From Escherichia phage EcS1, in the sequence record NC_055721.1: a DNA stretch of 64,000 bases, one strand, 5' to 3'. Positions 20,428 through 56,304 of this stretch are shown in pieces. Position numbers and translations under genes: made by a program. The stretch's first letter is position 1; each line of letters starts with the position of its first letter. The notes beneath the pieces are model-generated. The model worked only from the letters and a program-made list of their open reading frames with translations. It was not told where the DNA came from and did no database searches.

Positions 20428-21927
20428 GTGGATATCAATGTACATTTTGAAGATTATAGTCATGTTCTGATTGAATGCTCAGAGAGCATCTTCTTTGAAC
20501 TAAGAGACTACTTTTCATTTGAAGCTGATGGCTTCAAATTTAACCCACAATACAAATATGGTCATTGGGATGGACGAATTCGCCTTTTAGGTTATGACCG
20601 TCGTTTGCCATTTGGACTAGTTGGATTCATCGATAAATTTGCTTCCAATATGGATTACAAAGTAGCAATTGACCCTAAAATCAATGAGAAAGAAGATATC
20701 GCTCGTGTTGATTTTGATAATTGGTTGAATGCTCTTGAAATTTATTCTGGGTCTACCAAGATTGAGCCACATTGGTACCAGAAGGACGCCGTGTACACTG
20801 GCCTGATGAATCGTAGAAACATTCTTAATTTACCTACTTCCGCAGGTAAGTCATTGATTCAGGCGCTCCTGGCACGTTATTATGTTGAGAACTATGTTGG
20901 TAAGATTTTAATCATTGTTCCAACAACAGCTTTAGTTGATCAAATGATTGACGATTTTGTTGATTATCGTTTGTTCAATCGTAAGAATATGCTAGGCATT
21001 CGTGGTGGTACAGCTCGTGATTCTGACGCAGAGATTTATGTTGCTACTTGGCAAACTGCTGTTAAACAACCTAAAGAATGGTTCAGTCAGTTTGGTATGA
21101 TGATGAACGACGAATGTCATCTTGCTACAGGCAAAAGTATTTCATCTATTATTGCAGGCTTAAATAATTGTGCTTTCAAATATGGTCTTTCTGGTTCTTT
21201 AAAAGATGGTAAAGCCAATTTGATGCAATATGTAGGTATGTTTGGTAATGTTTTTAAGCCTGTGTCAACATCACAGCTTATGGAAGATGGTCAAGTAACT
21301 GATTTGAAAATCAACTCTATTTTCTTACGTTACCCTGATGAATTCTGTGCTCAAATGAAAGGCAAAGATTATCAGACAGAAATTAAGGTTATCCAAAAAG
21401 CTAAGAAACGAAATCTTTGGGTCTCTAAGCTTGCTGTTAAATTAGCTAAAAAAGAAGAGAACGTTTTCTTGATGTTCAAGAATGCCGAACATGGTAAAGA
21501 ACTTTTCCAAATGGTTAAAGACCTTGAGCATAAAGAAGTATTCTTCGTAAATGGTGAAGTTGATACTGATACTCGTAATGCATTGAAAGTAATGGCTGAA
21601 AATGGCAAGGGTATTATTGTTGTCGCTTCATACGGCGTATTCTCTACCGGCATCAGTGTTAAAAACTTACATCATATTATTTTTGCACACCCGGTAAAAT
21701 CAAAGATCATTGTGCTTCAGACTATTGGTCGTGTACTTCGTAAACACGTAAGTAAAACAACGGCTCAAGTCTGGGACATTATAGATGATATGGGTGTTAA
21801 ACCTAAGTCTGCTAATGCTAAAAAGAAATATGTTCATTTGAATTATGCATTAAAACATGCTCTTGAACGTATTCAACGTTATGCAGAAGAAAAATTCAAT
21901 TATGTAATGAAACAGGTAGACTTATGA
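20428..21927 (+). CDS. uvsW: UvsW recombination/repair helicase (GTG start)
   Basis: 499 aa; ILNLPTSAGKS Walker A, MMNDECHLA DExH box, GRVLRKH; near-identical to recalled T4 UvsW. Confidence 0.95.
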   Translation: MDINVHFEDYSHVLIECSESIFFELRDYFSFEADGFKFNPQYKYGHWDGRIRLLGYDRRLPFGLVGFIDKFASNMDYKVAIDPKINEKEDIARVDFDNWLNALEIYSGSTKIEPHWYQKDAVYTGLMNRRNILNLPTSAGKSLIQALLARYYVENYVGKILIIVPTTALVDQMIDDFVDYRLFNRKNMLGIRGGTARDSDAEIYVATWQTAVKQPKEWFSQFGMMMNDECHLATGKSISSIIAGLNNCAFKYGLSGSLKDGKANLMQYVGMFGNVFKPVSTSQLMEDGQVTDLKINSIFLRYPDEFCAQMKGKDYQTEIKVIQKAKKRNLWVSKLAVKLAKKEENVFLMFKNAEHGKELFQMVKDLEHKEVFFVNGEVDTDTRNALKVMAENGKGIIVVASYGVFSTGISVKNLHHIIFAHPVKSKIIVLQTIGRVLRKHVSKTTAQVWDIIDDMGVKPKSANAKKKYVHLNYALKHALERIQRYAEEKFNYVMKQVDL

Positions 21928-22151
21928 TTGACTTCAAACAATTTGTTCATGAAGCAGCAATCGAAACCTTTATGTCTAAAATAGGGTCTTGTATGACCCT
22001 TGATGGACTTAAAGAACTCGAAGGCTATTACAAGAAACGTTCAGGTGAAACTGAATTAGGTGATTCAGACGACATCAGTATTCGTGATGCATTGGCAGGC
22101 AAGCGTACAGAGCTTGAGTCGATGGATGATGAAGAAGATGAAGATTTTTAA
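21924..22151 (+). CDS. uvsW.1: UvsW.1 small acidic protein
   Basis: 75 aa directly downstream and overlapping uvsW stop, as in T4. Confidence 0.75.
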   Translation: MIDFKQFVHEAAIETFMSKIGSCMTLDGLKELEGYYKKRSGETELGDSDDISIRDALAGKRTELESMDDEEDEDF

Positions 22152-22154
22152 TAC

Positions 22155-22182
22155 AAAAAAGCCCCGACCATAAGGAAGGGGC
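22155..22182 (-). terminator. Minus-strand terminator after small Cys-rich ORF
   Basis: On minus strand GCCCC-loop-GGGGC followed by TTTTTTGT. Confidence 0.5.
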
Positions 22183-22212: not shown

Positions 22213-22377
22213 CTAAATTAAAAGTTGCGTTTCGTTCAATTGCTCTTGTGTGTCTTCAGTGACAGGCAATTCACACGCATAATTATAGCAAGGACCTGGA
22301 TGAACCAGACCTTTGTCTGATTGAACAACCAATGCCGAATCGATTGGTGTTTTACAGACGACACAAATCTCAGACAT
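22213..22377 (-). CDS. Small Cys-rich protein (54 aa, CVVC...CYNYAC)
   Basis: Hand-translated MSEICVVCKTPIDSALVVQSDKGLVHPGPCYNYACELPVTEDTQEQLNETQLLI; AAGGAG RBS 4 nt upstream; followed by minus-strand terminator hairpin. Confidence 0.45.
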   Translation of the reverse strand: MSEICVVCKTPIDSALVVQSDKGLVHPGPCYNYACELPVTEDTQEQLNETQLLI

Positions 22378-22409
22378 AATTGTCTCCTTGGTTGTCGTTA
22401 CATATCTAT

Positions 22410-22625
22410 TTATATTTGCTTTCTGGCTTTAGCTTTAAAGTCTCGCATATGCATGTCTATGCCCATTTGTGTTTCGTAGAAATACTCATCTATATACCCA
22501 GCAAACTTGCCTTTAATATAAAGAACATCTTCACCACACGGATGATCAGGTACAATACGGATATCTGAATCGGAAATTCCATGCTTTTTCTTTAAGAACT
22601 TTATCTCTTCTTCAAACTCTTCCAT
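22410..22625 (-). CDS. Hypothetical protein (uvsY.-1-like)
   Basis: 71 aa ORF abutting uvsY stop. Confidence 0.55.
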   Translation of the reverse strand: MEEFEEEIKFLKKKHGISDSDIRIVPDHPCGEDVLYIKGKFAGYIDEYFYETQMGIDMHMRDFKAKARKQI

Positions 22626-23059
22626 TACTTACCACCAGCTTCAAATACTCTGATATCAAGAATATGTTTAATGCTGAAACCACGAGCCTTTACAGCGTCC
22701 ATAGCACTTGAACAGAATTCAAGCAGAATAGCCCAATATTGCAATTGAGTTTCTACTTTCAACACATTGCTGTCTGCCGACAGAACCATTTTCATTTCTG
22801 ACTTCTCATATTGGTCCATACTCACAGCTTCACCTGGCTCACCACGACCGGTATAAAAATCCAATCGCTTCTTAAGCGCAGTCTTTTTCTGCGCTTCAAT
22901 TCTTAATATCTCTTTTCGACAAGTCGAATGCAGACGCAACCACTTCCCGTATAAAACAGGATTATTAGCAGCTTCATACTGTAACTTGGTTGAATCTATC
23001 TTTAAATCCTTATCTAACTCATCTTGAAACGACTCTAATTTAAACTCTAATCCACTCAT
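22625..23059 (-). CDS. uvsY: UvsY recombination mediator
   Basis: 144 aa; IDSTKLQYEAANN, LRIEAQKK, YEKSEMK, LQYW, RGF.IKHI match recalled T4 UvsY. Confidence 0.92.
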   Translation of the reverse strand: MSGLEFKLESFQDELDKDLKIDSTKLQYEAANNPVLYGKWLRLHSTCRKEILRIEAQKKTALKKRLDFYTGRGEPGEAVSMDQYEKSEMKMVLSADSNVLKVETQLQYWAILLEFCSSAMDAVKARGFSIKHILDIRVFEAGGK

Positions 23060-53496: not shown

Positions 53497-53906
53497 TAAT
53501 AATTCTCTTGTAAAGGATAAAAGAGGATTTCACGTCCATTCTTTTCGAATCGACCAATCATGATAACAGAATCAGAAGTATACTCTATATTTCCTAAAGC
53601 AGAGGCCTTTACAAGTTGTCCGTAATGAGGACAAACTTTCATACGTCCTTGGTCGAATACACCTGGACCACCTGCATAACAATAGAAATAGTCAGAACCA
53701 CCACGAATAGCTTCTACGGCTACTTCTATTTTGTAGATTCCATGTTCAAAAATATCAGCGGCATATCGTTGTGGGTCTTTTTTATATTCAGCAATTGTTG
53801 GTGCTGAAATCAAAGGACATAATGGCCAGTTCTTTTGTTCTTCACGTTTAAGTAATGTTAGGAGCATAATGTTCTTCCAGTGGATTGATATAAACTTCTG
53901 AGCCAA
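53496..53906 (-). CDS. Hypothetical protein, paralog A of tandem pair (probable start at 53867, MLLTLL)
   Basis: Shares LTLL..K.W...HGIY.(V/I)E and GN(V/I).Y...GRF.K.G.E...PL(E/Q)E(N/H)Y with 53848..54195; stop overlaps td start. Confidence 0.5.
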   Translation of the reverse strand: MAQKFISIHWKNIMLLTLLKREEQKNWPLCPLISAPTIAEYKKDPQRYAADIFEHGIYKIEVAVEAIRGGSDYFYCYAGGPGVFDQGRMKVCPHYGQLVKASALGNIEYTSDSVIMIGRFEKNGREILFYPLQENY

Positions 53907-54195
53907 TTTTGTAGAATCGACCAGTGATAACCATCACAGGACCATTCTCTGAATCATTATAAGTCACATTACCTGCAGCATGACCTAAGAACCATGTTTT
54001 AGTAGAAGTGCCGATATAAACAGGCTCATTGCCTTTATTGTTATACATGCAGCAGTCTTTAGACCATTGGTACAATTCATTGACTGGAATTTCTACACGA
54101 TAGATTCCATGCTCGTGACGCCAATTCTTCCAGACTTTTTGTTTCTTGTCTGCTTCAAGAAGAGTTAAGTTATACCCCAGTTTTGACATATACAT
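53848..54195 (-). CDS. Hypothetical protein, paralog B of tandem pair
   Basis: Paralogous to 53496..53906 (see above). Confidence 0.5.
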   Translation of the reverse strand: MYMSKLGYNLTLLEADKKQKVWKNWRHEHGIYRVEIPVNELYQWSKDCCMYNNKGNEPVYIGTSTKTWFLGHAAGNVTYNDSENGPVMVITGRFYKIGSEVYINPLEEHYAPNIT

Positions 54196-54793
54196 CCTCG
54201 CTGATATTTGTTACTGCATCAATATGATAATAGTGAGATTCTTTAAACAAGAAACCAGAGTCTTCGCGCGCTGGAGCAACAATAAAGCTCATTGGCAATT
54301 GAGTGTCAGAGTTCACCCTGTGACGTTTACGGATAGAGGTTTGTATTACCTTATCTGAGAATGGATAAGCTTGCTGAAGTAGTCCTGCACCACCTATCAC
54401 TGAATATACACCTTCTTCACGACTAAAGATAGCATTGAAATCAGCATTAGGGCTAGAAACTTGAAGTTCATGACCGTTCAGGAATTTATCGAATTGATAG
54501 TCACTTATATAAAAGTGAGCCAATGAGCCATCTTGAGTTGTAGGATAGTCACGAGACAAATCGCAAACAACTACATGAGGGCGTCCTACTAGTGGCTTAG
54601 GGAAACTAGAAAACGTCTTAGCTCCCATAATTAAAGTAGTGCCTTCAGTACGAGCTTTAAAGTTTTTAAGGTCTTGAGGAATATGGCCCCATGGTAACCC
54701 ACCATTTATTCCAAATGCAAATTCATTTTCGCCTGAAACAGTTTTAGTCCCAGCATAAGCATAAATTAATTGAATCATTGATTTTCCCACCAT
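54170..54793 (-). CDS. frd: Dihydrofolate reductase
   Basis: ELAFG...GLPWG, DL.NFKARTEGT.MIMGAKTF, HIVVCDL.RDYP.T.DG.LAHFYI, QVSSPNA, VIGG match recalled T4 Frd. Confidence 0.92.
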   Translation of the reverse strand: MVGKSMIQLIYAYAGTKTVSGENEFAFGINGGLPWGHIPQDLKNFKARTEGTTLIMGAKTFSSFPKPLVGRPHVVVCDLSRDYPTTQDGSLAHFYISDYQFDKFLNGHELQVSSPNADFNAIFSREEGVYSVIGGAGLLQQAYPFSDKVIQTSIRKRHRVNSDTQLPMSFIVAPAREDSGFLFKESHYYHIDAVTNISEDVYVKTGV

Positions 54794-55011
54794 TCAATAG
54801 CTTTTTTAACATCACAAAAATAATCAGAATTAATGCAACCACCGAATTCATCGTATAGGCACACTTCAATGAAACTAAGGCGTAAATGACAATCTGATTC
54901 ATGCATAGCTTGTTCTGCATGCATCTCAAAAATAGATAAATCTGATGATGTGAATGCACAATGGAGAAGATAATTATGGTCTTCGCCTTTGTATGAAATT
55001 GTTGTAATCAT
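54775..55011 (-). CDS. Hypothetical small protein (frd.x-like)
   Basis: 78 aa ORF. Confidence 0.4.
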   Translation of the reverse strand: MITTISYKGEDHNYLLHCAFTSSDLSIFEMHAEQAMHESDCHLRLSFIEVCLYDEFGGCINSDYFCDVKKAIEWWENQ

Positions 55012-55211
55012 CGACGTACCTCTTCAGCCATTTCTTCGAGAGCAGGGATTAGTTTGCGGGAGAATTCAATATTAGGGCCGCGGCCTATACGAGAAAAGAA
55101 GCCTGAAGTCATTTCTTTATGAGCCTGACGCATTGCATCGCGTACCAATAAGACTCCTTCAGCACGAGCATCTTTAAGCAGTTTATCAAGTTCTTCTTTA
55201 CTAATTTCCAT
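55008..55211 (-). CDS. Hypothetical small protein
   Basis: 67 aa ORF. Confidence 0.45.
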   Translation of the reverse strand: MEISKEELDKLLKDARAEGVLLVRDAMRQAHKEMTSGFFSRIGRGPNIEFSRKLIPALEEMAEEVRR

Positions 55212-55305
55212 AGCCTTGCCTCATTCCACATTGAATACACTTGCCACCAGCGAACATAAGTCCACACCCACAATACTTACATTCCCAATCAGTCAGAATT
55301 CTCAT
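55201..55305 (-). CDS. Zinc-ribbon-like micro-protein (34 aa)
   Basis: Hand-translated MRILTDWECKYCGCGLMFAGGKCIQCGMRQGYGN; start overlaps upstream stop (ATGA), stop overlaps downstream start. Confidence 0.35.
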   Translation of the reverse strand: MRILTDWECKYCGCGLMFAGGKCIQCGMRQGYGN

Positions 55306-55580
55306 TTTGTTTTCTTAGCAATTTTCCAGGCAGCTTTGAAAGCTTCGACTTCTTCAATTTCAATCCAAAAACCAGAACCAAAGCCATCGTCATAACAAGG
55401 ACAGCCGTCGCAATAGTCTTCCCAAGTAAGATCACGACCGCCAAGAGAAGAACCAGTTTCCATTGCACGCAGACGAATTTCAGCAGCTTCAATAGCTTCA
55501 GGGTCGTTACCTTCAATAGTGAAGTACCATTTTCCACGATATTCATTACCTAAGTTGATTGAGTTACGTTTAAGTTTCAT
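55302..55580 (-). CDS. Hypothetical protein (start at MKLKRNS after AAGGAG RBS)
   Basis: ORF with strong RBS. Confidence 0.5.
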   Translation of the reverse strand: MKLKRNSINLGNEYRGKWYFTIEGNDPEAIEAAEIRLRAMETGSSLGGRDLTWEDYCDGCPCYDDGFGSGFWIEIEEVEAFKAAWKIAKKTK

Positions 55581-55635
55581 TTTATTCTCCTTGTTGGTGT
55601 AGAAGCATAATACCATACCTCTACACCGTTGTACA

Positions 55636-55974
55636 CTACTTATTGAAAGTCTTTTTGATCAATGCAATCATTTCTTCTGCATTGCCTTCGTAGACAGTCA
55701 AAGTTATCGACTCATCTTTTATTTTTTCAAAGTATTTGAATTCACCTTGTGCTAGTTCAAAGTAAGGGACAAAACCACCTGAACCTGCAACTTGCCCATT
55801 GGCAAACTCGATTTCATCTACATAAAGGTCATAATCACATTTACTAACATTTCGAACAGTGAACCAACCACCATTCTTATCGATCAAACGAACCATTTCA
55901 TTGTTACAATGAGCATTTTCCATGAAAGCTGAGGTGCACTCTTCTTTCAAGCGATATTTTTTATCAACTTGCAT
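55636..55974 (-). CDS. Hypothetical protein
   Basis: 112 aa ORF. Confidence 0.5.
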   Translation of the reverse strand: MQVDKKYRLKEECTSAFMENAHCNNEMVRLIDKNGGWFTVRNVSKCDYDLYVDEIEFANGQVAGSGGFVPYFELAQGEFKYFEKIKDESITLTVYEGNAEEMIALIKKTFNK

Positions 55975-55976
55975 TT

Positions 55977-56207
55977 TTATTCACCTGATTCAACAATTGT
56001 ATCAAAAAGTTCTTCAATCATTTCTGGGTACATGCCAACACAGTACTCACGGTTTAGATAAAGATTGATAGTACGACGGTCACCTTCAATAGTGATTTCC
56101 ATACTGTAACCATTAGTAACACATTCAACTTCTTTAAGATTGTACTTATCAAGACAAGTCTCTTTGAAATAAGCATAATCGTAGATATCAATAGTTACTT
56201 TAGCCAT
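55977..56207 (-). CDS. Hypothetical small protein
   Basis: 76 aa ORF with own promoter and leader hairpin. Confidence 0.5.
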   Translation of the reverse strand: MAKVTIDIYDYAYFKETCLDKYNLKEVECVTNGYSMEITIEGDRRTINLYLNREYCVGMYPEMIEELFDTIVESGE

Positions 56208-56237
56208 TTTGTTTTCCTCACTTGTTTGTAGGAAAAC

Positions 56238-56266
56238 ATCTTACCACATCTAAATGAGGTTGTAAA
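56238..56266 (-). promoter_or_regulatory. Sigma70-like early promoter (TTTACA-17-TAAGAT) immediately after gene 32 terminator
   Basis: Hexamers read on minus strand; homologous to 46371-46399 unit. Confidence 0.5.
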
Positions 56267-56267
56267 C

Positions 56268-56297
56268 AGATACAAAAATGGGAGACCGAAGTCTCCC
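56268..56297 (-). terminator. Gene 32 terminator (GGGAGAC-TTCG-GTCTCCC + ATTTTTGT)
   Basis: Hairpin 7 nt after gene 32 stop, T-run follows. Confidence 0.8.
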
Positions 56298-56304
56298 ATC
56301 ATTA

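What the first reader, a model, noticed from the sequence alone, without database searches (positions are those of the whole stretch)
55201..55305. Two sub-60-codon Cys-rich micro-ORFs with zinc-ribbon-like spacing
55201..55305 (minus) encodes MRILTDWECKYCGCGLMFAGGKCIQCGMRQGYGN (CxxC...CxxC), with ATGA start overlap on the upstream gene and its stop overlapping the downstream start. 22213..22377 (minus) encodes a 54-aa protein with CVVC...CYNYAC behind an AAGGAG RBS. Both are invisible to the ORF track and are typical of small T-even zinc-finger regulators.
Basis: seen in the sequence. Interest (0 to 1): 0.4.

Follow-up and report, generated by a model that had tools for sequence, protein, structure and literature searches.

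The report
Two small zinc-finger phage genes
Both tiny open reading frames are real, conserved genes of a T4-like phage: one is an often unannotated 34-residue four-cysteine zinc ribbon of an already catalogued family of unknown function, and the other is the known T4 gene uvsY.-2. This is solid but ordinary small-gene biology rather than a new kind of system.

Summary

**ORF-A (55201..55305, minus strand, 34 aa)**
- It exists as described, with an ATGA start overlap and an 11-nt overlap with the next gene.
- It is a real gene. tblastn finds it in 291 T4-like phage records.
- The four Cys (C9, C12, C23, C26) are invariant in 14 of 15 sampled lineages and in 20 further IMG/VR copies, with TGC/TGT synonymous changes.
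- Mean pN/pS is 0.30, and it is the only frame open in all copies.
- It belongs to phrog_17317 (unknown function). Its architecture is a minimal C-x2-C-x10-C-x2-C zinc ribbon.
- 11 of the 14 relatives I inspected leave it unannotated, and its exact sequence is absent from a 15-billion-protein collection.
- T4 itself lacks it, and one lineage (phiR1-RT) carries a decayed copy, so it is an accessory gene.

**ORF-B (22213..22377, minus strand, 54 aa)**
- It is the orthologue of T4 uvsY.-2 (Pfam DUF2685, 90 bits) in T4-identical synteny.
C35 is not conserved, while C5, C8, H26 and C30 are invariant, which points to a CCHC finger rather than a four-Cys ribbon.
- T4 uvsY.-2 is reported as "Semi-Fit" and important for infection.

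Nothing supports "regulator". Function is unknown for both. The most likely role is a small zinc-stabilised binding module. Novelty and interest are low.

The parts
55201..55305 (-). ORF-A: 34-aa stand-alone C4 zinc-ribbon micro-gene (phrog_17317 member)
   Evidence: Sequence and ORF list. phrog_17317 E=3.5e-19, full length 1-31/31. 291 phage records by tblastn. pN/pS 0.29-0.30 and the only frame open in 13/13 copies.
55222..55287 (-). Zinc-ribbon core, residues W7..M28: W-x-C-x2-C-G-x9-C-x2-C-G-M; predicted ligands C9, C12, C23, C26
   Evidence: Invariant columns I3 L4 D6 C9 K10 C12 G13 G20 C23 C26. Cys codons alternate TGC/TGT. Gapless profile alignment to RanBP-type and DZR/Zn_Ribbon_1 repeats.
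55302..55305 (-). ATGA start/stop overlap with the upstream frd.1-like gene (translational coupling, inferred)
   Evidence: The same kind of overlap is seen in X20, S16 and others.
55201..55211 (-). 11-nt overlap of ORF-A's 3' end (codons Y-G-N-stop, specific to this phage) with the start of the downstream gene
   Evidence: Relatives end ...GGN TAA TG with stop and start overlapping. The window reads GGC TAT GG, which removes the stop and adds 3 codons.
55214..55222 (-). GAGGCAAGG inside ORF-A's tail codons (M-R-Q-G): Shine-Dalgarno-like sequence for the downstream gene
   Evidence: Conserved ATGAGGCA(A/G)GG directly before the next ATG in 11 of 15 lineages. It is absent where the tail differs (Merci, WolfER13, PM2, RB49). 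The SD function is inferred.
55302..55580 (-). Upstream gene: Frd.1 orthologue (DUF5417, phrog_1254), 92 aa
   Evidence: PF17438 E=2.1e-50. phrog_1254, the same PHROG as T4 frd.1 (PMC11879866 supplement).
55008..55211 (-). Downstream 67-aa gene (phrog_8520, unknown function)
54775..55011 (-). 78-aa gene (phrog_3183, unknown function)
54170..54793 (-). frd (dihydrofolate reductase); ORF-A always lies within 0-3 genes of it in relatives
   Evidence: ORF list. Annotated synteny in 14 relatives.
22213..22377 (-). ORF-B: UvsY.-2 orthologue (DUF2685, phrog_1043), 54 aa; probable CCHC zinc finger C5, C8, H26, C30
   Evidence: PF10886 90.1 bits against a cut-off of 25. 1251 phage records. 100% identical to EcS1 KNT65_gp242. 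Invariant C5 C8 K9 P11 G23 H26 G28 C30.
22384..22389 (-). AAGGAG ribosome-binding site of ORF-B, 6 nt before the ATG
   Evidence: Sequence.
22155..22182 (-). GC-rich hairpin (GCCCC...GGGGC) followed by a T-run after ORF-B; likely terminator between convergent uvsY.-2 and uvsW.1
   Evidence: Seen directly in the sequence. Not called by the consensus scan, whose loop limit is 8 nt, so this is an inference.
22410..23059 (-). uvsY (22625..23059) and uvsY.-1 (22410..22625), upstream of ORF-B as in T4
   Evidence: ORF list compared with the T4, Ac42 and other annotated loci.

Best explanation
Both ORFs are real protein-coding genes of a T4-like phage. The window is 100% identical over 2,080 bp to a 175,437-bp IMG/VR contig, the same length as the Escherichia phage EcS1 record that holds the identical ORF-B protein.

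ORF-A encodes a 31-residue-core, stand-alone C4 zinc ribbon (W-x-C-x2-C-x10-C-x2-C). It sits in the gene 32 - frd.3 - frd.2 - frd.1 - frd - td cluster and is probably translated by coupling to its neighbours, through the ATGA overlap at the start and the stop/start overlap at the end. Its tail codons also provide the next gene's Shine-Dalgarno sequence. Most of the conserved residues look structural (the four Cys, the knuckle glycines, Trp7, Leu16). The residues at the hairpin tip (14-15, 17-19) and positions 22, 24 and 25 vary by phage lineage. I therefore infer a zinc-stabilised mini binding module that docks onto a host or phage macromolecule. It is an accessory rather than a core function, because T4 lacks it and phiR1-RT carries a decayed copy.

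ORF-B is the orthologue of T4 uvsY.-2. It most likely folds as a CCHC (CxxC...HxxxC) treble-clef-like zinc finger followed by a poorly predicted acidic tail that ends in a conserved L-N-E-T-Q-L-L motif.

Shown: the genes are real, under purifying selection, and assigned to their families; the ligand positions are conserved; the synteny holds. Inferred: zinc binding, translational coupling, early expression, and the binding-module role. The target is unknown.
For: ORF-A:
- The ORF and its overlaps are as described.
- phrog_17317, E=3.5e-19.
- 291 phage records by tblastn, 284 of them covering at least 80% of the query.
- The four Cys are invariant in 14 of 15 lineages with TGC/TGT synonymous changes. 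26 of 28 third codon positions vary against 11 of 28 second positions. Mean pN/pS is 0.29.
- It is the only frame open in 13/13 copies and has the lowest pN/pS of the six frames.
- 20 further small copies on IMG/VR T4-like contigs all keep the four Cys.
- The gene persists while its flanking genes change: it follows frd.1 in the window, X20, PM2 and PhiKpNIH-6, follows other genes in S16, Merlin and PEi26, and lies between frd and td in RB49.
- Zinc-ribbon architecture: the profile finds RanBP-type, DZR and Zn_Ribbon_1 repeat proteins over query positions 6-30, with gapless hhalign alignments at about 97% probability. The AF2 model has pLDDT 77.8, and all its top Foldseek hits are C4 zinc ribbons.
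- The junction sequences are conserved.

ORF-B:
- PF10886, 90 bits.
- T4-identical synteny uvsY / uvsY.-1 / uvsY.-2 facing uvsW.1 / uvsW.
- Invariant C5, C8, H26, C30.
- The model is nearest to LIM CCHC half-domains, rmsd 1.5-1.7 A.
- T4 uvsY.-2 knockdown is 'Semi-Fit' and was complemented (PMC11879866).
Against: - There is no direct evidence of expression, zinc binding or any partner.
- No zinc-ribbon Pfam family reaches its gathering score. The best is PF10005 at 15 bits against a cut-off of 23.4.
- The fold-search hits are not statistically significant (best E=0.27 and 0.29), as expected for such short chains.
- The hhalign probabilities are inflated, because the targets were pre-selected by the profile search.
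- Part of ORF-A's C-terminal conservation (M-R-Q-G) may reflect the neighbour's ribosome-binding site rather than protein function.
- ORF-A is dispensable in some lineages: T4 lacks it and phiR1-RT has a decayed copy.
- The 'binding module' role is argued from size and the conservation pattern only.
Confidence: 0.7

Rival explanations
1. ORF-A is a nucleic-acid-binding regulator, in line with the first reader's 'zinc-finger regulator'. On this reading the ribbon binds RNA or DNA and modulates transcription or translation of early genes, for example those of the frd-td nucleotide-metabolism cluster.
For: Many C4 zinc ribbons bind nucleic acids. The nearest structural and sequence matches include ZRANB2 ZnF, archaeal Rpo12 and ribosomal proteins eL43/L40e. 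The peptide carries several basic residues (K/R2, K10, R/K22, K25, R29). It is tightly embedded in a conserved operon next to frd.
Against: There is no test of binding. The same fold class also mediates protein-protein contacts: the Nup153-Ran, NZF-ubiquitin and MDM2-RPL11 hits appear in the same list. No helix or second domain is present that could give sequence specificity. No conserved candidate operator or RNA element was found, and Rfam finds nothing in the window. The gene is absent from T4, although T4 shares the same operon.
Confidence: 0.2
2. ORF-A matters only as a translated spacer. It would be a short upstream ORF whose translation delivers ribosomes to the downstream gene, with the peptide itself having no function.
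For: The start and stop overlap the neighbouring genes. The tail codons encode the next gene's SD-like GAGGCAAGG. There is no strong SD of its own in the window (gctaagaaaacaaaATG).
Against: The amino-acid sequence, and specifically the four Cys and the knuckle Gly residues, is conserved while synonymous sites are near saturation (pS about 0.70, pN about 0.20). Conservation persists although the downstream gene differs between lineages: a 67-aa gene, an unrelated 81-aa gene, frd itself, or RB49ORF236c. A spacer would not need a metal-binding motif.
Confidence: 0.05
3. ORF-A is a chance ORF, or a decayed fragment of a larger zinc-finger protein such as a homing endonuclease domain, and is not a functional gene.
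For: The motif alone is only weakly unexpected (0.18 expected against 1 observed). Most genome annotations omit it. phiR1-RT carries a frameshifted remnant. A 176-aa IMG/VR protein shares the DWECKYCG octapeptide.
Against: There are about 290 intact copies of constant length (29-34 aa) under purifying selection. No longer homologue exists among 1.84 billion representatives, and only three small clusters form the family. The 176-aa protein matches only half of the motif (phrog_17317 positions 5-20, E=2e-4).
Confidence: 0.03

Closest known systems
phrog_17317 (for example Salmonella phage S16 gp156.2 AGE48209.1; Melville gp162; Citrobacter phage CF1 gp195; Pectobacterium phage PM2_260)
   Same: Full-length match, E=3.5e-19, covering 31/31 profile positions. 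Same four Cys and the same position in the 32-frd cluster.
   Different: The window copy has a 3-residue C-terminal extension (YGN) because the TAATG junction reads TATGG here, plus a non-conserved fifth Cys (C14). The family has no known function.
C4 zinc ribbons of the RanBP2/NZF type (Pfam Zn_ribbon_RanBP PF00641) and bacterial DZR / Zn_Ribbon_1 (PF12773, PF13240) repeats
   Same: Identical spacing W-x-C-x2-C-x10-C-x2-C, Gly after each second Cys, and a gapless profile alignment over both knuckles. The top fold matches are ZRANB2, Nup153 and TAB2 NZF fingers.
   Different: No Pfam zinc-ribbon model reaches its threshold, and PF00641 is not reported at E<=1. From my own knowledge of the consensus, the RanBP2-type Asn at the fourth position after the second Cys is Leu here. 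The phage protein is a single free-standing unit rather than a repeat within a larger protein. Common ancestry is not demonstrated.
T4 UvsY.-2 / Pfam DUF2685 (PF10886), phrog_1043
   Same: ORF-B matches at 90 bits, is 79-80% identical to T4 UvsY.-2, and has the same gene order and strand arrangement.
   Different: Nothing substantive. The window copy carries an extra, non-conserved Cys (C35). Function is still unknown, although T4 knockdown reduces fitness (PMC11879866).
LIM-domain first zinc module (C-x2-C-x16-23-H-x2-C)
   Same: ORF-B's conserved C5-x2-C8-x17-H26-x3-C30 ligand pattern and predicted fold superpose on LIM half-domains (rmsd 1.5-1.7 A over 26-28 residues, probability up to 0.93).
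   Different: E-values are not significant (0.29 or worse). The His-Cys spacing is x3, not x2. There is a single module and no second zinc site. This is a structural analogy only.

Membership tests
phrog_17317 (ORF-A) | Significant full-length match to the family profile | tested here: met
   E=3.5e-19, 69.2 bits, residues 1-31 on profile positions 1-31/31.
C4 zinc ribbon (two CxxC knuckles) - ORF-A | Four metal-ligand Cys conserved across homologues | tested here: met
   C9, C12, C23 and C26 are invariant in 14 of 15 lineages and in 20 further IMG/VR copies. The exception, phiR1-RT, is a frameshifted remnant.
C4 zinc ribbon (two CxxC knuckles) - ORF-A | Knuckle spacing and Gly pattern alignable to established zinc-ribbon repeats | tested here: met
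   Gapless hhalign to PF00641-type and DZR/Zn_Ribbon_1-type repeats, probability about 97%. The targets were pre-selected by the profile search, so the statistics are optimistic.
C4 zinc ribbon (two CxxC knuckles) - ORF-A | Match to a curated Pfam zinc-ribbon model above its gathering score | tested here: not met
   The best is PF10005 Zn_ribbon_DZR_6 at 15 bits against a cut-off of 23.4, E=0.043.
C4 zinc ribbon (two CxxC knuckles) - ORF-A | Two-beta-hairpin fold superposable on solved zinc ribbons | tested here: inconclusive
   AF2 pLDDT 77.8, with only short beta bridges. The top Foldseek hits are all zinc ribbons, but the best E is 0.27 with TM about 0.5.
C4 zinc ribbon (two CxxC knuckles) - ORF-A | Stoichiometric Zn2+ binding | not testable with these tools
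   Needs ICP-MS, a PAR assay or Co2+ titration on the peptide.
Pfam Zn_ribbon_RanBP (PF00641) - ORF-A | Pfam model match, and the W-x-C-x2-C-x3-N-x6-C-x2-C consensus including the Asn | tested here: not met
   PF00641 is not reported at E<=1. The Trp and the Cys spacing are present, but the position of the consensus Asn (consensus from my own knowledge) is Leu16 in all phage copies but one, which has Ile. ORF-A is therefore not filed as a member, only as the same architecture.
DUF2685 / T4 UvsY.-2 (ORF-B) | Pfam PF10886 above its gathering score | tested here: met
   90.1 bits against a cut-off of 25, E=1e-25, residues 3-53 on profile positions 2-54/55.
DUF2685 / T4 UvsY.-2 (ORF-B) | Orthologous position: last gene of the uvsY operon, convergent with uvsW.1/uvsW | tested here: met
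   Window order is uvsY 22625..23059, uvsY.-1 22410..22625, ORF-B 22213..22377, facing 21924..22151 and 20428..21927 on the + strand. T4, MIZ3 and Aeromonas phage 31 have the same arrangement.
   C35 is present only in the window copy among 11 diverse sequences, and T4 has CYNYIKE. C5, C8, H26 and C30 are invariant.
   ORF-A: T4 has a 71-nt non-coding gap between frd.1 and frd, there is no profile hit in 10 kb of the T4 32-nrdA region, and no record labelled T4 or Tequatrovirus appears among the listed rows of the 291 tblastn records. ORF-B does meet this test.

The most novel reading that the evidence does not exclude
ORF-A could be a free-standing, RanBP2/NZF-like zinc ribbon used by a subset of T4-like phages as an early effector. 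On this reading its lineage-specific hairpin tip (residues 14-19: CGLMFA, GGLLFA, GSLWQL, GLLYSA) is tuned to a host-genus-specific target, for example a host defence or nucleotide-metabolism protein. That would make it one of the smallest folded phage effectors, and one systematically missed by annotation. The evidence does not exclude this, but it offers only the conservation pattern and the host-correlated variation in its favour.
Probability: 0.15. Interest if true: 0.5.

Novelty: new member of a known kind. Interest (0 to 1): 0.25.

Why it matters
The main value is practical. ORF-A is a bona fide gene that 11 of 14 inspected T4-like genome annotations omit, including the annotation of the source genome. 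This is a concrete example of how length cut-offs hide conserved micro-proteins.

For biology, it gives two small and cheaply testable zinc-binding candidates. One of them, uvsY.-2, already has a fitness phenotype in T4 but no mechanism. The corrected ligand set (C5, C8, H26, C30) says exactly which residues to mutate.

Neither gene changes how T4-like phages are understood.

Tried and rejected
- The search for homologous proteins and the search for related loci refuse queries under 40 aa. I worked around this with tblastn on phage records, a degenerate DNA pattern scan of IMG/VR and a profile search of 1.84 billion representatives.
- Sequence searches of PDB gave only weak zinc-knuckle motif hits for ORF-A (best Rpo12, E=0.0015, as two swapped half-matches) and no meaningful hits for ORF-B (best E=0.32).
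- NCBIfam and PADLOC found nothing for either protein.
- Rfam found nothing anywhere in the window.
- The longer IMG/VR proteins sharing 'DW(E/D)CKYCG' (L034, L038, L040) were examined as possible multidomain relatives. They match only the first knuckle, with no informative Pfam domain, so I rejected them.
- The long repeat-protein hits to C2H2 fingers (P0019, P0022) are half-motif matches (query positions 6-20) and were disregarded.
- Literature searches for DUF2685 and for small zinc ribbons in T4-like phages returned nothing.
- The promoter/terminator scans are at background level and were not used as evidence.

Full report
**What is there**

The window is a T4-like phage (Straboviridae). 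It carries gp32, Frd.3, Frd.2, Frd.1 (DUF5417) and Frd on the minus strand around 54.1-57.2 kb. UvsY, UvsY.-1 and UvsW lie around 20.4-23.1 kb. The nearest records in the phage collection are Winklervirus-type phages (Erwinia phage Vettismorki, Serratia phage X20), at about 89% nucleotide identity over parts of the region. Window 53887..55966 is 100% identical to a 175,437-bp IMG/VR contig. That is the same length as the Escherichia phage EcS1 record holding a protein 100% identical to ORF-B. The window is therefore EcS1 or an identical genome.

**Checking the observation**

Its ATG overlaps the TGA of the upstream frd.1-like gene as ATGA. Its last 11 nt overlap the first 11 nt of the downstream 67-aa gene, whose ATG is at 55211.

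ORF-B (22213..22377, minus strand) also translates as stated. AAGGAG lies 6 nt before its ATG, and a GC-rich hairpin with a T-run follows it.

The motif alone is not significant. Order-1 Markov simulations of the window give 0.18 ATG-ORFs of 25-59 aa with CxxC-x(5-20)-CxxC, against one observed. The case therefore rests on comparative evidence.

**ORF-A is a real gene under purifying selection**

- tblastn finds it in 291 phage records, and 284 of them cover at least 80% of the query. They include Klebsiella, Escherichia (RB49-like), Enterobacter, Salmonella, Citrobacter, Serratia, Erwinia, Edwardsiella, Cronobacter and Pectobacterium phages.
- I extracted the locus from 14 taxonomically spread relatives.
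- In 14 of 15 lineages, counting the window, the ORF is intact, 29-34 codons long, and keeps C9, C12, C23 and C26. Each of these Cys positions uses both TGC and TGT.
- Of 28 aligned codons, 26 vary at the third position, 17 at the first and 11 at the second. Mean pairwise pS is 0.70 against pN 0.20, a ratio of 0.29.
- Repeating the calculation in all six frames shows the claimed frame is the only one open in 13/13 sequences. It also has the lowest ratio: 0.30, against 0.43 for the antisense frame that shares wobble positions (interrupted by stops in 6/13) and 1.2-1.4 for the rest.
- A degenerate DNA pattern scan of IMG/VR yielded 20 more small copies, all with four Cys. They lie on contigs of roughly 85-178 kb, most of them T4-like genome size.
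It is met in only one lineage, Yersinia phage phiR1-RT. That copy has W7C, a 7-nt deletion and a frameshift through the second knuckle, so it is a decayed remnant.

**What ORF-A is**

It is a full-length member of phrog_17317, 'unknown function' (E=3.5e-19). No Pfam, NCBIfam or PADLOC family claims it. The best Pfam hit is Zn_ribbon_DZR_6, below threshold.

A profile search of 1.84 billion representative proteins finds only three small clusters (30-32 aa) as the family proper. The remaining hits are repeat proteins. Those matching over the whole query length carry Pfam Zn_ribbon_RanBP, DZR or Zn_Ribbon_1 repeats. Profile-profile alignment to two such repeat sets is gapless across both knuckles. 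For example, phage DWECKYCGxxLMFAGGRCFKCGMRQ aligns with NWDCKACGASVYPNKANCFRCGQAR and with KYCTTCGEALNPMAEICPKCGVRQ, at about 97% probability. That statistic is optimistic because the targets were chosen by the search.

The AlphaFold model is of moderate confidence (pLDDT 77.8). Its Foldseek neighbours are all C4 zinc ribbons (ZRANB2, Nup153, TAB2/HOIL-1L NZF, DUF35, L40e, TniQ), but none is significant (best E=0.27).

My conclusion is that ORF-A has the architecture of a minimal, free-standing C-x2-C-x10-C-x2-C zinc ribbon with a Trp two residues before the first Cys. I do not file it in PF00641. That model does not match, and the consensus Asn (recalled from my own knowledge) is Leu here.

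**Anatomy and likely mode of expression**

In nearly all relatives the gene ends ...ATG AGG CA(A/G) GGN TAA TG. The stop overlaps the next ATG, and the M-R-Q-G codons contain GAGGCAAGG, a Shine-Dalgarno-like sequence for the next gene. At that junction the window reads TATGG where relatives read TAATG. This removes the stop and adds Y-G-N before the next in-frame TAG, while the downstream ATG is untouched.

The start overlaps the stop of whatever gene lies upstream. In the window there is no strong SD ahead of the ATG. I infer translational coupling on both sides. It also follows that part of the C-terminal conservation may be a nucleotide-level constraint from the neighbour's ribosome-binding site. 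In line with this, the tail differs where the junction differs (Merci, WolfER13, PM2, RB49).

The flanking genes vary:
- frd.1 lies upstream in the window, X20, PM2 and PhiKpNIH-6.
- Unrelated genes of about 70 or about 107 aa lie upstream in S16, Merlin, PEi26 and the Karamvirus phages.
- frd itself lies upstream in RB49.
- Several unrelated small genes, or frd directly, lie downstream.

The micro-gene always stays within 0-3 genes of frd on the same strand. It therefore behaves as an independent, selectively retained module.

**Dispensability and annotation status**

T4 has only a 71-nt gap between frd.1 and frd, and the family profile finds nothing in 10 kb around it. Together with the phiR1-RT remnant, this marks an accessory gene.

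It is annotated in 3 of the 14 relatives I inspected (S16 gp156.2, PM2_260, Wolf_ER13). It is missing from the other 11, which include X20, RB49, Merlin and PEi26. The exact window sequence is absent from a 15-billion-protein collection.

**ORF-B**

This is the orthologue of T4 uvsY.-2:
- Pfam DUF2685 at 90 bits, and phrog_1043.
- 1,251 phage records by tblastn, reaching Acinetobacter, Aeromonas and Vibrio phages.
- T4-identical synteny.

In an alignment of 11 diverse members, C5, C8, K9, P11, G23, H26, G28 and C30 are invariant. The likely metal site is therefore C-x2-C-x17-H-x3-C, a CCHC site.

The AlphaFold model has pLDDT 74.7 overall and is well predicted for residues 1-35. It shows a knuckle, a short beta-hairpin and a helix starting at residue 29, followed by a poorly predicted acidic tail. 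Its nearest PDB folds are LIM half-domains (CCHC), with rmsd 1.5-1.7 A and probability up to 0.93, but E is 0.29 or worse.

Functionally, CRISPRi-ART knockdown classed T4 uvsY.-2 as 'Semi-Fit'. Complementation restored plaquing, and the authors call it 'important for T4 infection' with unknown function. In the same screen frd.2 was 'Fit' and frd.1 'Not Fit' (PMC11879866).

**Mechanism (inferred) and rivals**

A 31-residue peptide whose conserved residues are mostly structural (Cys, knuckle Gly, Trp7, Leu16, Gly20-21), and whose variable residues cluster at the hairpin tip and beside the second knuckle, is best read as a zinc-stabilised docking module for a macromolecular partner. Whether that partner is protein or nucleic acid cannot be decided here.

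A pure translated-spacer role is unlikely, because the metal-ligand pattern is conserved regardless of which gene follows. Chance or a gene fragment is excluded by the selection data.

**Verdict**

In terms of novelty, ORF-A is a new, unannotated member of an already catalogued family of unknown function, and ORF-B is already known. Interest is low, and the value lies mainly in annotation and in offering two cheap experimental targets.

Noticed in passing
L009:1700-1790, L010:1611-1700, L013:1611-1700 (Jiaodavirus phages KPV15, Merci, Wolf_ER13): A different 29-aa micro-ORF, strongly hydrophobic (MIEAELVVLLISVTAAFISGIILGLFLYV), sits directly after frd.1 with an overlapping start. It looks like a single-pass membrane micro-protein. 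It is annotated only in Wolf_ER13, and there is no counterpart in the window.
   Followed up: partly
L012:2001-2099 (Yersinia phage phiR1-RT): This is a decayed copy of ORF-A with W7C, a 7-nt deletion and a frameshift through the second knuckle. Here the frd.1 promoter/RBS region (cttctacaccaacaaggagaataaaATG, identical to window 55581..55607) is fused directly to the micro-ORF start, which implies deletion of frd.1 in that lineage.
   Followed up: partly
window 55581..55635 (-): An inverted repeat GTGTAGA...TCTACAC lies just upstream of the frd.1-like gene's AAGGAG RBS and overlaps a sigma-70-like promoter match (TGTACA-17-TATTAT with an extended TG). The segment is conserved in phiR1-RT. It could be a promoter or an RNA hairpin controlling the frd.1 / ORF-A / frd operon.
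   Followed up: no
window 55302..55580 (-): The Frd.1/DUF5417 protein immediately upstream of ORF-A has its own Cys cluster (WEDYCDGCPCYDDGFG). I did not examine whether these Cys are conserved.
   Followed up: no
window 56277..56300 (-) and 56195..56302 (-): A strong intrinsic-terminator hairpin (GATGGGAGACTTCGGTCTCCCATT followed by a T-run) lies directly after gene 32. The 35-aa ATG-ORF listed there overlaps the hairpin and is probably spurious.
   Followed up: no
window 55636..55974 (-): The frd.2 orthologue (PF03197). T4 frd.2 was the only T4 'Fit' gene of unknown function in the CRISPRi-ART screen (PMC11879866). It also gives weak matches to a goF-like PHROG (phrog_13003, E=2.5e-4).
   Followed up: no
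L002:2501-2593 (RB49) and other Krischvirus records: In RB49-like phages the ORF-A homologue lies between frd and the gene preceding td, rather than upstream of frd. No feature is annotated under the match in RB49, Phi1, JSE, ECD7, MIZ3, MIZ5 and Brandy.
   Followed up: partly
L040:1279-1809 (IMG/VR contig of 156 kb): A 176-aa protein begins with ...DWECKYCG..., identical to ORF-A's first knuckle, and has a second CxxC 21 residues later. It gives only a half-motif match to phrog_17317 (E=2e-4) and no informative Pfam domain.
   Followed up: yes
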